This document shows, piece after piece, positions 2,528 through 6,939 of a stretch of 64,000 nucleotides of DNA. Position 1 is the first letter of the stretch, and each line of letters starts with the position of its first letter. Where the stretch lies: NCBI RefSeq assembly GCF_003334255.1, contig NZ_QOWU01000019.1, one strand, 5' to 3'. A program made the translations under genes and the position numbers. The DNA comes from Escherichia coli (lineage in GTDB: Bacteria > Pseudomonadota > Gammaproteobacteria > Enterobacterales > Enterobacteriaceae). The notes below the pieces were generated by a model. That model saw only the letters and a list, made by a program, of their open reading frames with translations, searched no databases and was not told where the DNA came from.

Positions 2528-3247
2528 TCATCTGTGCATCAGGACTTCAGCAATATGCATCACTTTTACAGGATGCCCTTCACGGTTAAGCCGACCGCCG
2601 ATGTTTAGCAGACAACTGGCGTCAGCCCCGATAAGAAAATCAGGTTTAACATCCATAATATGCCCAACTTTCTCTTTCACCATTTCACCAGAGATCTCCG
2701 CCATTTTTACAGAGAATGTGCCGCCAAACCCGCAGCACGTTTCCTGAGCGTGAAACGGCAGTAGCTCAAGCCCCTGTACATTCTCAAGTAGCAAAAGCGG
2801 CTCTCTGGTTACACCCAGTTTACGGGAAAGGCTGCAGGAGGGATGGTACACAGCGCGACCATTGAGTTTTGCCCCAACATCTGTGATGCCAAGATGATTT
2901 ACTATAAATGATGTCAAATCATGCAGGCGTTCAGCCACTTTTTCAGCTCGTGCTGCCCACTCAGGTTCTTCACTGAGATAGCGAGCGTAATTTTTTATCG
3001 TGTAAGTGCATGACCCGGCAGGAGATACTACCGGCCAGTCATTCTCTTCCAGCGAAGATATGAGATTTTTCATGCCTGGGATGGCATCACGAACATAACC
3101 GCCATTTATCGCTGGCTGACCACAACATCCCTGCTTTTCGGGGAAATGGACATTGCAACCCAATTGCTCCAGTAACAGCACACTCTTTTGTGCCATCCGG
3201 GATTTAAACGCATCACCAATGCAGGTGACGAAAAAGTTAACATTCAC
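2528..3247 (-). CDS. ykgE: Cysteine-rich (CCG-domain) Fe-S oxidoreductase subunit LutA/YkgE
   Basis: 239 aa ORF, N-terminal MNVNFFVTCIGD and CCG motifs typical of YkgE/LutA; first gene of the ykgEFG-type operon. Confidence 0.85.
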   Translation of the reverse strand: MNVNFFVTCIGDAFKSRMAQKSVLLLEQLGCNVHFPEKQGCCGQPAINGGYVRDAIPGMKNLISSLEENDWPVVSPAGSCTYTIKNYARYLSEEPEWAARAEKVAERLHDLTSFIVNHLGITDVGAKLNGRAVYHPSCSLSRKLGVTREPLLLLENVQGLELLPFHAQETCCGFGGTFSVKMAEISGEMVKEKVGHIMDVKPDFLIGADASCLLNIGGRLNREGHPVKVMHIAEVLMHR

Positions 3248-3296
3248 AGAAATTTCTCCTGTTGATTAATATTCCACGTCCTTTTGTTGTTTTTTC

Positions 3297-4853
3297 TCAG
3301 GCCATGAACAGGTGGTAGACAAGGCCTACTTTCAGTCCAAGAATAACAATATAAGCAAAGCAGTACTTCAGTGTTCCTGACATGATTACGCTGCCCTGAC
3401 CATCCATACGGGTGGCTGAAACAGCGATAGCAATACTCTGAGGAGAAATCATTTTGCCGCCTGTTGCGCCAGATGTATTTGCGGCAGCCAGCCAGAGCGG
3501 GTCCACATGCAATTTTTCAGCCGCAGTGGTCTGCAATTTACCGAACAGAATGTTGGAGTTTGTGTCACTGCCTGTAACAAATGTACCAAGAGCGCCAATA
3601 ACCGGAGCAATGAAGAGGTAGGCTCCACCAGTGAGATCCACAAGGCTTTGTGCCAGAGTGCCAATTAACCCACAAACATCCATTACCGTTGCCATGGCAA
3701 CAATCGCAGAAATGGCAATAATGGAGTTTTTGAGCTGTTTTACCGTACTGATAAATACGTTTAACAGACATGACAGGGATGCTTTTTGTATCAAGCCGCC
3801 AATAACACTGGCAATGATAATCAGAACACCGGGGGTTGCGATCCATTCAATCTTCATCGACAGATTGCTGCCGTTACTCAGAGAGAAACTGAGTGACGAG
3901 GCAATCTGAGACACCGCACTTTTTATCGTCGGGAACAGTGGAGAGCAAAGCAGAATGAACAGAAAAATCAGGATGTAGATTGAGCACGCACGTAACAACG
4001 CCCCACGAGAGTATGAAAGTGCGCTGGCGCTATCTGCTGAAGTATCAATAAGAAATTCAGGTTCTGTTTTTTCTTTACGGTTTTTTGCCATAAAGACTAT
4101 AACGATCAGACTGACAAGACTTCCCGCGAAAGCCGGGAGTTCTGCACCAAGATTAACAGCCACCAGATACTGAGGTATCAATGTGCTGACACCGCACATC
4201 AGGGTAATTAATCCTACGCCTCGTATAGCCTTCATCCCTCCACCGATAATCGCGACGATGACGAAGGGGAGCAGAATGTTGAACAGTGCCAGCTGAAGAA
4301 TAATCGTCCCACTGAGTGTGGTTACAGGCAAATTAACTTGTTCAGCAAGTACAGAGACAGGTATACCGACTGCTCCAAATGCTGTAGGGACTGTATTAGC
4401 AACCAGTGACGCAATTGCTGCTTTTAGTGGGTTAAAGCCCAGTGCAATCAGTATACCAATGGGGATTGCTACAGCTGTACCGTAACCGGCTGCCGCCTCA
4501 AGAAATCCGCCAAAACACCATGAGATAAGAAGTACCTGGATACGCTTGTCATCACTAACGCTCGCCAGAACATTTCTCAGAATATCCATGCTTTTTGTCG
4601 CATTCATCAGGTTATAGCTGTAAATGGCAGCAAGGATAACAATCACAATTGGCCACAAACCTTTGATTGTGCCGTATACCACAGCAGATCCCATATCCAT
4701 AACTGGCGTCTGCCAGAAAACACCCCCAAGGATTAGCGTGATCAGGAGAGTGCTAAGCACGGCATAATGTATGGGCATTTTGACTTTCAGAATCAAAATG
4801 ATCATCGCCAGAAGCGGTGTAAGTCCCAGTAAAAAAAGCAGGTAATCGTGCAT
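3297..4853 (-). CDS. L-lactate permease family (LctP) transporter
   Basis: 518 aa polytopic membrane protein with LctP-family character; directly upstream of and co-oriented with ykgE (44 nt gap). Confidence 0.8.
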   Translation of the reverse strand: MHDYLLFLLGLTPLLAMIILILKVKMPIHYAVLSTLLITLILGGVFWQTPVMDMGSAVVYGTIKGLWPIVIVILAAIYSYNLMNATKSMDILRNVLASVSDDKRIQVLLISWCFGGFLEAAAGYGTAVAIPIGILIALGFNPLKAAIASLVANTVPTAFGAVGIPVSVLAEQVNLPVTTLSGTIILQLALFNILLPFVIVAIIGGGMKAIRGVGLITLMCGVSTLIPQYLVAVNLGAELPAFAGSLVSLIVIVFMAKNRKEKTEPEFLIDTSADSASALSYSRGALLRACSIYILIFLFILLCSPLFPTIKSAVSQIASSLSFSLSNGSNLSMKIEWIATPGVLIIIASVIGGLIQKASLSCLLNVFISTVKQLKNSIIAISAIVAMATVMDVCGLIGTLAQSLVDLTGGAYLFIAPVIGALGTFVTGSDTNSNILFGKLQTTAAEKLHVDPLWLAAANTSGATGGKMISPQSIAIAVSATRMDGQGSVIMSGTLKYCFAYIVILGLKVGLVYHLFMA

Positions 4854-5761
4854 GTCATTTCCTCAAACGAAAACAAAGTCAGCATCATTACTGTGGATAT
4901 TGATAGTCTCCACACCCTGTCGGACGAGAGCGTTTAGTTATCAGGGGGAGAATGAGTATCGCCTCCAAAATTGGGATGTACTTATAAAGTATTTTTTAGT
5001 TTAAAAAATATAGCTGAATCGTTTCATTGTTATCTTCCATGAATAAATGTTATGGAATAATACTTTTTGGGTATTTTTTGTTTATGCTTGTAACACTTGT
5101 GTGCTATCCCGATATAACCTTAAGACTGGAGTTGCAACTGGAGCTCGTCGAAAATCAACGCCCAAATCCTCGACAAATGGAGAAAGAGAATGAGCAATAT
5201 CACCAGGAATAGTTTAGTTGTAGCAGGCGTTCTGGCTTATGGCAGGGAATGTTGCGTTGGCATCTGATGTGCCTACTGAAGTGACTCTAATAGAAAAACA
5301 AACGCTGGTACGTAACAACGGTGCAGAGGTTCAGTCAGAGCAGGACACTGACTGTCGTCTGAGAGGAAGTGGATAAAGCCGGAGCAAGAGAGCCAAATCA
5401 TGATCGATTCGAATGCCAAACTATGATCGATTCAGATGCCATTTTGCAATTAATTTAAAGTTTTATAAAAAACATGACAAAAAATATGTTATATAGTTGT
5501 ATATAAAGTATTATTATCTGAACAGGTTATTATATATTAAATGGAACAGAAGATTATTAATTACTTATCCAGTAATAGCCCTGCAAAATTAGGCGTTTTA
5601 TTGAATGATTTAAATATAACAAAGGAGGTGCATTACTCCGCAACATTAATTTTAGAAGAATTATACACCAGAGAAATGTTGGTGTAATTCTCTTGTGTGA
5701 TAATGTTATACAGAATATGCAAATGTAGTTTACATTTGTCCTGTCTATTCTTATTTGTAAG

Positions 5762-5990
5762 CGTTAACCGAGTGCCGCATTGACGCTTATTTATTAGTGA
5801 GTACTACGTTCCATGGCGAGAGTTCGTCAACACGGTTGGAAGGCCATTCCAGTAGTACGCCCAGGATATGGCGCAAATACGCTTCCGGGTCGATACTGTT
5901 CAGTCGGCAGGTGCCAATCAGCCCGTACAGTAGCGCTCCACGCTCTCCACTGTGATCGTTGCCGAAGAACACGTAGATGATATGACCTTT
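5762..5990 (-). mobile_element. IS66-family element 3' remnant (transposase C-terminal fragment plus terminal repeat)
   Basis: ORF 5787-5972 encodes the conserved IS66 TnpC C-terminus (…LYGLIGTCRLNSIDPEAYLRHIL…SPWN); terminal sequence tgtaagcg at ~5760-5770; truncated on the other side by the IS110-type insertion. Confidence 0.55.
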
Positions 5991-6032
5991 ATATACTCAC
6001 TATAGCATTGGTGGGATATTCCAGAGGTCATC

Positions 6033-6939
6033 ATGGATTCGGAAAATATTGCAGCTTACGTCGGGCTGGATGTTCATAAAGAAACCTTGGCGATTGCTAC
6101 ACCTGAATGGCTTGGCGAAGTTCGTTATTATGGTACGATTAACAACGAAGTCCTGGCTGTACATCGATTATGTCAGAAATTGCAGGGACCTTACGGAAAC
6201 ATTCTTTCCTGCTATGAAGGTGATCCCTGTAGTTTTGGGCTATATCATCAACTCACAGTGATGAATATAAAATGCCTGGTTATTGCCCCCTTCCCGTATA
6301 CCCAAATCACCGGCAGACAGGATCAAAAATGACCATCGGGATGTAATTTCTCTCGCCAGGTTACTGAGGGATGGTGAGGTTCCCCCAGTCTGGCTCCCTG
6401 AGCTGACTCATGAAGCTATGCGGGATTTAATCAGAGCCCATGCCGCTGCAAAACGTGACACGAACAGACAAACGTTATGCCAGGAAGCACTGAACCGGCA
6501 AACATCGAACCTGGTTAGTTAATCAATCATTTGGTCTGCTATCTCAACAGATTGCTTTCAACATTATTGTCAGAATCTGGAGCAGATTGAAGATCGCATA
6601 CTTCAACTCGATCAGGAAATATCTCGCCTGTTACCTGAGTGATCTCTGTGCAATCTGGTCTGCCAGTTGCAGGCTCTTAAAGGTGTTGGTCAGCTAATCG
6701 CAATAACCCTGGTTGCTGAACTGGGTGATTTTTCTCGATTTTCCAATCCTGAACGGCTCATGGCTTTTCTGGGACTGGTGCCAGGTGAATATTCCAGCGG
6801 AAACAGCATTCGCCCCAGAGGAATAACAAAAGTTGGAAACAGTGAACTGAGACATCTGCTTTACGGATATCAAATAAATTCAGATTATTTAACAGTAAAA
6901 CCCCACTTATGTGATGAATCTCATAAAAAAGCAAAGTGA
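6033..6939 (+). pseudogene. IS110-family transposase, disrupted by frameshifts
   Basis: Three consecutive ORF fragments (6033-6332, 6283-6522, 6667-6939) in different frames; N-terminal VGLDVHKETL motif and C-terminal LKGVGQLIAITLVAELGDFSRF…PGEYSSG motif typical of IS110-family transposases. Confidence 0.65.

What the first reader, a model, noticed from the sequence alone, without database searches (positions are those of the whole stretch)
5400..5738. Tandem 19-bp repeat and an 8-3-8 palindrome in the non-coding stretch between the lut promoter and IS66 remnant
atgatcgattcgaatgcca and atgatcgattcagatgcca are repeated with a 4-bp spacer (5400-5441), and a perfect palindrome CAAATGTAgttTACATTTG lies at 5720-5738 in an AT-rich region. 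These could be regulator binding sites or relics of an element end.
Basis: seen in the sequence. Interest (0 to 1): 0.2.

Follow-up and report, generated by a model that had tools for sequence, protein, structure and literature searches.

The report
Leftover end of an IS21-type jumping gene
The tandem repeat is the surviving 57-bp tip of a known IS21-family insertion sequence, made of two transposase-binding repeats and the terminal CA; the nearby palindrome is an unremarkable AT-rich hairpin at the end of a decayed small gene, so the finding is ordinary.

Summary

**Tandem repeat.** It is a 23-bp-period array of 2.2 copies (5392-5441) that runs on to 5448. Read on the minus strand, 5448→5392 equals positions 1-57 (55/57 identical) of the left end of an intact 2,639-bp IS21-family element. 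That element carries istA and istB, PGAP labels its IstB 'ISSso4 family', and it has many copies in E. coli. Its ends are TG…CA, it makes 5-7-bp target duplications, and its left end holds five 23-bp direct repeats. The window keeps TGCAAAA, repeats L1 and L2, and 4 nt of L3; the rest of the element is deleted. The same block occurs in about 1,300 of 5,426 complete E. coli genomes and on plasmids of other enterobacteria, in unrelated contexts. So it is a relic of an element end, not a host regulator site.

**Palindrome (5720-5738).** It lies in a 308-bp AT-rich fragment bounded by the IS21 terminus (5448) and an IS66-type inverted repeat (5757). It overlaps the stop codon of a 65-aa winged-helix ORF, which is frameshifted in this window by a 10-bp deletion. 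A palindrome of this kind is expected by chance about 19% of the time. It is broken without compensation in both diverged copies, and it is a poor terminator. Most likely it has no function.

**Verdict.** Known kind, low interest.

The parts
5190..5342 (+). 5' fragment of an oppA-like peptide ABC transporter substrate-binding gene (pseudogene). Context only.
   Evidence: PGAP annotates it in the 99.5%-identical locus L001 (6331-6483 = window 5190-5342). Homology to OppA N-termini ends at ...NNGAEVQS, and different sequence follows in other contexts.
5338..5391 (.). 54-bp scrap of unknown origin between the oppA' fragment and the IS21 end.
   Evidence: It is found only in this context and in L008 (91% identical). 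It does not match the IS21 interior or the IS66 inverted repeat.
5392..5448 (-). Remnant of the left terminal inverted repeat (L-TIR) of an IS21-family (PGAP: ISSso4-like) insertion sequence, element positions 57 to 1. The outer terminus, with the CA dinucleotide, is at 5447-5448.
   Evidence: 55/57 identical to the left end of intact copies L013-L015 and L005. Homology to unrelated contexts breaks exactly at 5448 in L004, L005 and L007.
5419..5441 (-). Direct repeat L1 (TGGCATCTGAATCGATCATAGTT on the element strand), a presumed IstA-binding site.
   Evidence: Unit 1 of five 23-bp repeats in the intact element. The 23-bp spacing and the L1/L2 nomenclature come from PMC10122671.
5396..5418 (-). 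Direct repeat L2 (TGGCATTCGAATCGATCATGATT), a presumed IstA-binding site.
   Evidence: Unit 2 in the intact element, identical here.
5449..5756 (.). 308-bp AT-rich (about 25% GC) fragment of island DNA into which both insertion sequences inserted.
   Evidence: Composition profile. In L008 the homologous sequence runs on uninterrupted past both junctions. It is absent from the GTDB species representatives, from phages and from Rfam.
5541..5687 (+). Decayed copy (48 aa, frameshifted by a 10-bp deletion after about 5653) of a 65-aa stand-alone winged-helix ORF.
   Evidence: The ORF is 65 aa in L002, L012 and L008-L011. Variable sites by codon position are 10/7/22. The AlphaFold2 model has pLDDT 88.6 with a winged-helix topology and Foldseek TM-scores around 0.7 to CggR, MntR and BirA DNA-binding domains.
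5720..5738 (.). Perfect 8-3-8 palindrome CAAATGTAgttTACATTTG that overlaps the TAG stop codon of the ancestral 65-aa ORF.
   Evidence: Sequence. RNA hairpin of -7.2 kcal/mol, z about -2. No compensatory changes: 2 pairs broken and 1 wobble in L010 and L008. Chance expectation 0.19.
5757..5975 (-). Right-end remnant of an IS66-family element: inverted repeat GTAAGCGTTAACC... starting at 5757 and a 61-aa C-terminal transposase fragment at 5787-5972. An IS110-family remnant follows.
   Evidence: PGAP annotation of L001. The inverted repeat resembles the other IS66 end in L001. Intact IS66-family copies stop at the equivalent terminus in L004.

Best explanation
**Tandem repeat.** It is a dead relic: the outermost 57 bp of the left terminal inverted repeat of an IS21-family insertion sequence (an ISSso4-like element with istA and istB). 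In this family each end consists of several direct repeats spaced 23 bp apart. These repeats are bound by the transposase IstA, which assembles as a tetramer that pairs the two ends and cleaves after the terminal CA.

- Shown: the sequence identity with the intact element's end, the 23-bp spacing, the terminal CA at 5447-5448, and the element boundary at 5448.
- Inferred: the element once inserted into an AT-rich stretch of this E. coli genomic island with its left end at 5448. A later deletion or rearrangement then removed everything inward of position 57 (the three inner repeats, istA, istB and the right end) and joined the stump to a 54-bp scrap next to an oppA-like pseudogene. With no transposase and no second end it cannot move by itself, and it has no role in regulating the lactate genes.

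**Palindrome.** It belongs to the 308 bp of target DNA left between this IS21 stump and an IS66 stump. It overlaps the stop codon of a small winged-helix gene that is itself inactivated in this window. It is most likely a fortuitous AT-rich inverted repeat with no function, or at most a weak transcription stop.
For: **Identity with an IS21-family left end**
- Window 5448→5392 is 55/57 identical to positions 1-57 of intact copies.
- The intact element is 2,639 bp, runs TGCAAAATGGCAT...GAATACGCA, and is flanked by 5-7-bp target duplications (CCCGG, GTCAAT, CGCAGAC) in three independent chromosomal insertions.
- It encodes IstA and IstB.
- It has five 23-bp direct repeats at the left end and two or three at the right end.

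**Distribution**
- 226 of 5,426 complete E. coli genomes carry a copy covering at least 80% of the element, with up to 34 places per genome.
- The terminal block occurs in 1,303 genomes and on Salmonella, Shigella, Klebsiella and Edwardsiella plasmids, with different neighbours each time.
- Homology breaks exactly at 5448 in three unrelated contexts.

**Literature**
- IS21 ends consist of direct repeats L1/L2 and R1/R2 spaced 23 bp apart, end in CA and give 5-bp duplications; IstA needs two full repeats (PMC10122671).

**Palindrome**
- Chance expectation 0.19.
- Zero compensatory changes; the pairing is broken in L010 and L008.
- No further half-sites nearby, no Rfam hit, and it is not picked up by the terminator scan.
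- L008 shows the AT-rich DNA continuing past both IS junctions.
Against: - No intact element at this exact site exists in the 5,426 complete genomes, so the original insertion and later deletion are inferred rather than observed.
- The inner truncation point (position 56/57) coincides with the point where an IS66 inverted repeat abuts the same IS21 end in 239 Nissle/ATCC 25922-type genomes. The history may therefore involve IS66-mediated rearrangement rather than a simple deletion.
- The stump retains two complete repeats plus the terminal CA. That is the minimum that IstA needed in vitro, so residual binding by IstA supplied in trans cannot be excluded.
- IstA binding to these particular repeats was not tested; it rests on family knowledge.
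- For the palindrome, perfect symmetry in all E. coli copies and a folding z-score of -2 to -3 leave some room for a function.
Confidence: 0.88

Rival explanations
1. The palindrome is a weak intrinsic (Rho-independent) terminator that ends the transcript of the small winged-helix gene. The hairpin forms at the stop codon and is followed by a pyrimidine/T-rich tract.
For: It overlaps the TAG stop of the 65-aa ORF found in relatives. It forms a 9-bp RNA hairpin of -7.2 kcal/mol with z = -2.1, followed by UCCUGUCUAUUCUUAUUUGU. In L008 a T-rich tract also follows it.
Against: The stem has only 1-2 G-C pairs, and no uninterrupted U-run adjoins it. The terminator scan does not list it; it lists a different hairpin at 5664-5686. 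Stem pairs are broken without compensation in L010 and L008, where the fold is no better than shuffles (z = -0.6). The homologous genes in L017 and L018 have no equivalent hairpin.
Confidence: 0.2
2. The palindrome is an operator bound by a dimeric DNA-binding protein, possibly the adjacent winged-helix protein itself.
For: The dyad is perfect, 8-3-8. The gene immediately upstream is predicted to fold as a winged-helix DNA-binding domain.
Against: It lies downstream of the gene, not at its promoter. No other half-site (at most 1 mismatch) occurs in the 308 bp or in the 800 bp of L008. The symmetry is lost in the two diverged copies. It is compatible with chance.
Confidence: 0.06
3. The solo IS21 left end is still active in trans. 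IstA from an intact copy elsewhere in the cell binds L1-L2 and uses this end for aberrant (one-ended or two-left-end) transposition or rearrangement, or it attracts new IS21-family insertions.
For: The stump keeps two complete repeats and the terminal CA, which is the minimal substrate for IstA integration in vitro; products with two left ends were seen there (PMC10122671). L008 carries a separate IS21 right-end remnant 108 bp from the left-end remnant, and the DNA outside the terminus differs between L008 and the window. Both observations hint at rearrangements at this terminus.
Against: There is no direct evidence of activity. The arrangement is stable across 79-82 genomes and 16 metagenome contigs. 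No partner end or intact copy lies in the 64-kb window.
Confidence: 0.1
4. The tandem 19-mers are operator sites for a host regulator of the divergent lldP-lutABC lactate operon.
For: Only their position, about 540 bp upstream of lldP, and their repeated nature.
Against: The same block sits at the end of IS copies in hundreds of unrelated loci and plasmids. An oppA-like pseudogene separates it from the lldP promoter. L008 keeps lldP-lut with only 24 bp of the block.
Confidence: 0.01

Closest known systems
IS21-family terminal inverted repeats with multiple direct repeats (L1/L2, R1/R2), as in IS21 and IS5376; here an ISSso4-like element of E. coli and Shigella
   Same: TG...CA termini, direct repeats spaced 23 bp apart, an istA-istB operon in intact copies, and 5-7-bp target duplications. 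The window stump is 55/57 identical to the intact element's left end.
   Different: Only positions 1-57 survive, so there is no transposase, no helper ATPase and no right end. The intact E. coli element has five left-end repeats rather than the two of the IS5376 model system.
Solo IS ends or IS scars in genomic-island 'IS graveyards'
   Same: The truncated terminus is flanked by other IS fragments (IS66, IS110) and pseudogenes inside an ExPEC island that carries iha and lldP-lutABC.
   Different: Nothing notable. The same truncation point also abuts an IS66 inverted repeat in a different island lineage (Nissle type).
Intrinsic transcription terminators
   Same: The palindrome forms a hairpin right after a stop codon, followed by T-rich sequence.
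   Different: The stem is AT-rich (-7 kcal/mol), has no contiguous U-tract, and is not maintained in diverged copies.

Membership tests
IS21-family insertion sequence, left terminal inverted repeat | Termini 5'-TG ... CA-3' | tested here: met
   Window 5447-5448 is CA, and on the element strand the end starts TGCAAAA. Intact copies run TGCAAAA...ACGCA.
IS21-family insertion sequence, left terminal inverted repeat | Multiple direct repeats within the end, spaced about 23 bp apart (L1, L2, ...) | tested here: met
   TRF gives period 23 and 2.2 copies. There are five 23-bp units in the intact left end. The 23-bp spacing is stated in PMC10122671.
IS21-family insertion sequence, left terminal inverted repeat | Adjacent istA (DDE transposase) and istB (AAA+ helper) genes | tested here: not met
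   Absent from the window: the stump ends at 5392, and no other copy of the repeat lies in the 64 kb. Both genes are present next to the identical end in intact copies L005 and L013-L015. The window therefore holds a fragment of a member, not a complete member.
IS21-family insertion sequence, left terminal inverted repeat | Short (4-8 bp) target-site duplication | tested here: inconclusive
   Seen for intact copies (5-7 bp). It cannot be tested in the window because the right end is gone.
IS21-family insertion sequence, left terminal inverted repeat | Repeats bound by IstA | not testable with these tools
   Inferred from biochemical and cryo-EM work on IS5376 IstA (PMC10122671).
IS66-family terminal inverted repeat (as a home for the palindrome) | The feature lies within the roughly 20-30-bp inverted repeat beginning GTAAGCG | tested here: not met
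   The inverted repeat starts at 5757 and the palindrome ends at 5738. L008 has the palindrome with no IS66 beside it.
Intrinsic terminator | G+C-rich stem immediately followed by a U-run | tested here: not met
   Not reported by the terminator scan. The stem has 1-2 G-C pairs and folds at -7.2 kcal/mol.
Structured RNA or conserved dyad operator | Pairing or symmetry maintained across diverged homologues (covariation) | tested here: not met
   0 pairs change on both sides; 2 pairs are broken and 1 is a wobble, in L010 and L008. There is no Rfam match.

The most novel reading that the evidence does not exclude
The 57-bp solo left end, which retains the two IstA-binding repeats and the terminal CA that suffice in vitro, could still be a live substrate for IstA supplied in trans by intact ISSso4-like copies. 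It would then drive rearrangements at this island junction. That could explain why the DNA outside the terminus differs between lineages (window versus L008) and why an IS66 end sits at the same truncation point in another lineage. Separately, the neighbouring 65-aa winged-helix ORF would be a new small DNA-binding protein family, with the palindrome as its site.
Probability: 0.08. Interest if true: 0.3.

Novelty: already known. Interest (0 to 1): 0.07.

Why it matters
It matters little. The result removes a candidate 'regulatory repeat' upstream of the accessory lactate-utilisation genes of an ExPEC island and re-labels it as an unannotated IS21-family end fragment. PGAP leaves 5343-5786 unannotated in the close relative. 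Practically, it shows that short tandem 23-bp repeats ending in CA are a signature of IS21-family termini, and that annotation pipelines miss such solo ends. It also maps the exact IS junctions (5448 and 5757) that delimit a 308-bp piece of island DNA carrying a decayed orphan winged-helix gene.

Tried and rejected
**Native context for the AT-rich 308 bp**
- An exact-pattern scan and a peptide-pattern scan of 100,044 species genomes found nothing.
- Phage records gave no match.
- The metagenome scan returned only near-identical E. coli-type copies plus one chance hit, L030.
- There was no Rfam family, even at E ≤ 1.

**The small ORF**
- No match in Pfam or NCBIfam, and only one marginal PHROG match (E = 0.006).

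**An intact IS at this exact site**
- A chimeric query (IS left end plus window flank) found none in 5,426 genomes. One apparent 23-nt extension (H146) was a chance AT-rich flank upstream of fadM.

**The palindrome**
- Tested as part of the IS66 inverted repeat: rejected.
- Tested as one of several half-sites: none found.

**The 54-bp scrap at 5338-5391**
- Tested as a continuation of oppA or as an IS66 end: neither holds.

**History of the locus**
- I could not reconstruct a full rearrangement history linking the window-type, L008-type and Nissle-type arrangements.

Full report
**Observation.** The sequence reads as the first-stage reader reported.
- atgatcgattcgaatgcca lies at 5400-5418, the spacer aact at 5419-5422, and atgatcgattcagatgcca at 5423-5441.
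- CAAATGTAgttTACATTTG lies at 5720-5738.
- Tandem Repeats Finder and the repeat finder describe the first feature more naturally, as a 23-bp-period array of 2.2 copies at 5392-5441.
- The repeat core occurs twice in the window against 0.16 expected by chance.

**Setting.** The window is an E. coli genomic island.
- Positions 4860-6000 are 99.5% identical to strain G1/2 and to ST69 strains.
- PGAP annotates there: lutCBA and lldP on the minus strand; a 153-bp 5' fragment of a peptide ABC transporter substrate-binding gene (window 5190-5342); nothing at all for 5343-5786; an IS66-type transposase C-terminal fragment (5787-5972, minus strand); a degraded IS110-family gene; several hypothetical genes; and iha.
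- 79-82 of 5,426 complete E. coli genomes share this arrangement.

**What the tandem repeat is.** A search with 5343-5786 showed that only window 5392-5448/5452 recurs widely.
- It is found in 1,303 genomes, with up to 33 places per genome, and on plasmids of Escherichia, Salmonella, Shigella, Klebsiella and Edwardsiella. Its neighbours differ each time.
- In plasmid pGF60-D the block is the outer part of the region upstream of istA in an intact istA-istB element, whose IstB PGAP names 'IS21-like element ISSso4 family'.
- Three independent chromosomal insertions define the element precisely. It is 2,639 bp and runs 5'-TGCAAAATGGCAT ... GAATACGCA-3'. It is flanked by direct target duplications of 5-7 bp (CCCGG, GTCAAT, CGCAGAC).
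- Its left end is TGCAAAA followed by five direct repeats of about 23 bp (TGGCAT-N6-CGATC-N-...). The right end has two or three such units in inverted orientation.
- Read on the minus strand, window 5448→5392 is 55/57 identical to element positions 1-57. That comprises the 7 terminal bases, repeat L1 (5441-5419), repeat L2 (5418-5396) and the first 4 nt of L3.
- Homology to unrelated contexts ends exactly at 5448 in ATCC 25922 (L004), pGF60-D (L005) and strain cM8a (L007, where an ISL3 element follows).
- The element is common and evidently active: 226 genomes hold a copy covering at least 80% of it, and some hold 29-34 places.

**Match to the literature on IS21 ends.** These features are those described for IS21-family termini (Spinola-Amilibia et al. 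2023, PMC10122671).
- The terminal inverted repeats are composed of direct repeats L1-L2 and R1-R2, separated by 23 bp.
- There is a reactive terminal CA, and target duplications are 5 bp.
- IstA requires two complete repeats for integration in vitro, and a tetramer synapses the two ends.

**How the stump arose.** This part is inferred.
- Inward of position 57 the window has a 54-bp scrap (5338-5391) instead of repeats L3-L5 and istA. That scrap occurs only in this context and in L008.
- No complete genome carries an intact element at this site, so the original insertion and its later truncation are not directly observed.
- In 239 genomes of the Nissle 1917 / ATCC 25922 type, the inverted repeat of an IS66-family element abuts the same IS21 end at position 56. 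That is one base from the window's truncation point.
- In the window, an IS66 end with the same IS110-disrupted structure (86% identical to the Nissle-type copy) lies 308 bp away in the opposite orientation.
- This suggests that IS66 insertion and IS66-mediated rearrangement, rather than a random deletion, shaped the stump. I could not reconstruct the steps.

**The 308 bp between the two IS termini (5449-5756).** This stretch has about 25% GC. It is bounded by the IS21 terminus at 5448 and by the IS66-type inverted repeat GTAAGCGTTAACC... starting at 5757.
- *Empty sites in L008.* In the metagenomic or SRA contig L008 the homologous sequence (84% identical) continues uninterrupted beyond both junctions. 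This gives 'empty sites' for both insertions. In L008 the segment is also inverted relative to lldP and is not adjacent to the IS21 stump.
- *A decayed ORF.* The segment carries an ORF (5541-5687). It is 65 aa in VR50, JNEC-KY176, L008 and three other contigs. In the window and its closest relatives it has a 10-bp deletion after about 5653, giving a frameshifted 48-aa product.
- *Evidence that it was a real gene.* Variation among the 65-aa copies is concentrated at third codon positions (10/7/22). Against L008 the first 40 codons show 7 synonymous changes and 1 non-synonymous change.
- *Predicted fold.* AlphaFold2 gives a winged-helix fold (best model pLDDT 88.6, the other four models 58-67). 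Foldseek TM-scores are about 0.7 to the DNA-binding domains of CggR, MntR and BirA, but with weak E-values (≥0.009).
- *Rarity.* The only remote relatives among 1.8 billion cluster representatives are two small proteins, P0007 and a frameshifted P0008. Pfam and NCBIfam give no match. The family is absent from 100,044 species representatives.

**The palindrome.** It overlaps the TAG stop codon of the 65-aa ORF and lies 18 bp outside the IS66 inverted repeat. L008 retains it without any IS66 nearby, so it belongs to the target DNA and not to an IS end.

*Is it more than chance?*
- In composition-matched random 308-mers, at least one perfect 8-nt-arm inverted repeat with a 0-10-nt loop appears 19% of the time.

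*Is it conserved?*
- It is identical in all E. coli-type copies, including 16 metagenome contigs, but those copies are 95-100% identical overall.
- The two diverged copies break it. L010 has T→C in the left arm. L008 has two changes in the right arm.
- Across the alignment, 0 pairs change on both sides, 2 pairs are broken and 1 becomes a wobble.

*Does it look like a terminator or an operator?*
- As RNA it forms a hairpin of -7.2 kcal/mol (z about -2 on the plus strand). In L008 the fold is no better than shuffled sequence.
- The terminator scan does not list it.
- No other half-site occurs nearby, and there is no Rfam match.
- Homologues of the small gene in other contexts have no equivalent hairpin.

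My reading is that it is a fortuitous AT-rich inverted repeat. A weak terminator role is the main rival (about 0.2), and an operator role is unlikely (about 0.06).

**Comparison with known systems and membership.** The repeat block meets the sequence-level definitions of an IS21-family terminus: TG/CA ends, 23-bp direct repeats, and identity to an element with istAB and short target duplications. It lacks the genes and the second end, so it is a fragment of a member, not a member. IstA binding is inferred from family knowledge. The palindrome fails the tests for an IS66 inverted repeat, an intrinsic terminator and a covarying structure.

**Verdict.**
- Novelty: already known.
- Interest: low (0.07).
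- The most novel reading not excluded is that the solo end, which still has the minimal two repeats plus the CA, is used in trans by IstA and contributes to rearrangements at this junction (probability about 0.08).

Noticed in passing
window 5541-5687 (intact 65-aa versions at L002 about 6708-6905, L008 1802-1999): An orphan stand-alone winged-helix ORF, 65 aa in relatives. The window copy is frameshifted by a 10-bp deletion. The substitution pattern looks like a coding sequence, and the AlphaFold2 model is a confident winged helix. There are almost no relatives in 1.8 billion protein representatives and no Pfam or NCBIfam family.
   Followed up: partly
window 5757-6346 versus L004 3398-4000: The same composite, an IS110-family remnant inserted in an IS66-family right end, occurs with a shared junction in two lineages that are only 86% identical. 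This reflects either old shared ancestry or site-specific targeting of IS66 by the IS110-family element.
   Followed up: no
L004 3990-4060 (ATCC 25922, Nissle 1917 and about 239 genomes) versus window 5391/5392: An IS66 inverted repeat abuts the IS21 left end at element position 56, one base from the truncation point in the window. The reason for the coincidence is unexplained; it may reflect an ancestral IS66 insertion followed by rearrangement.
   Followed up: partly
L008 (Logan SRR18070594) 3013-6759, equivalent to window position about 5082: A group II intron (RVT_1 and GIIM ORFs, fragmented) is inserted between lldP and the oppA-like fragment in this variant of the island. L008 also carries a separate IS21 right-end remnant (2467-2505) 108 bp from a left-end remnant that is only 24 bp long.
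   Followed up: partly
window 4991-5009: A second perfect 8-GTT-8 palindrome, ATTTTTTAgttTAAAAAAT, lies in the AT-rich region upstream of lldP. It is altered in L002 and L008, so it too is probably fortuitous.
   Followed up: partly
window 5338-5391: A 54-bp scrap of unknown origin joins the oppA-like fragment to the IS21 stump. In other contexts the oppA homology ends at the same point (...VQS) and is followed by different sequences, for example an IS2 end.
   Followed up: partly
L006 (plasmid CP099079.1) and NZ_CP035852.1: The lldP-lut / oppA' / IS21-stump module, up to window-equivalent 5503, also occurs on IncF conjugative plasmids. There it is interrupted by IS3-family and IS1 elements.
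   Followed up: no
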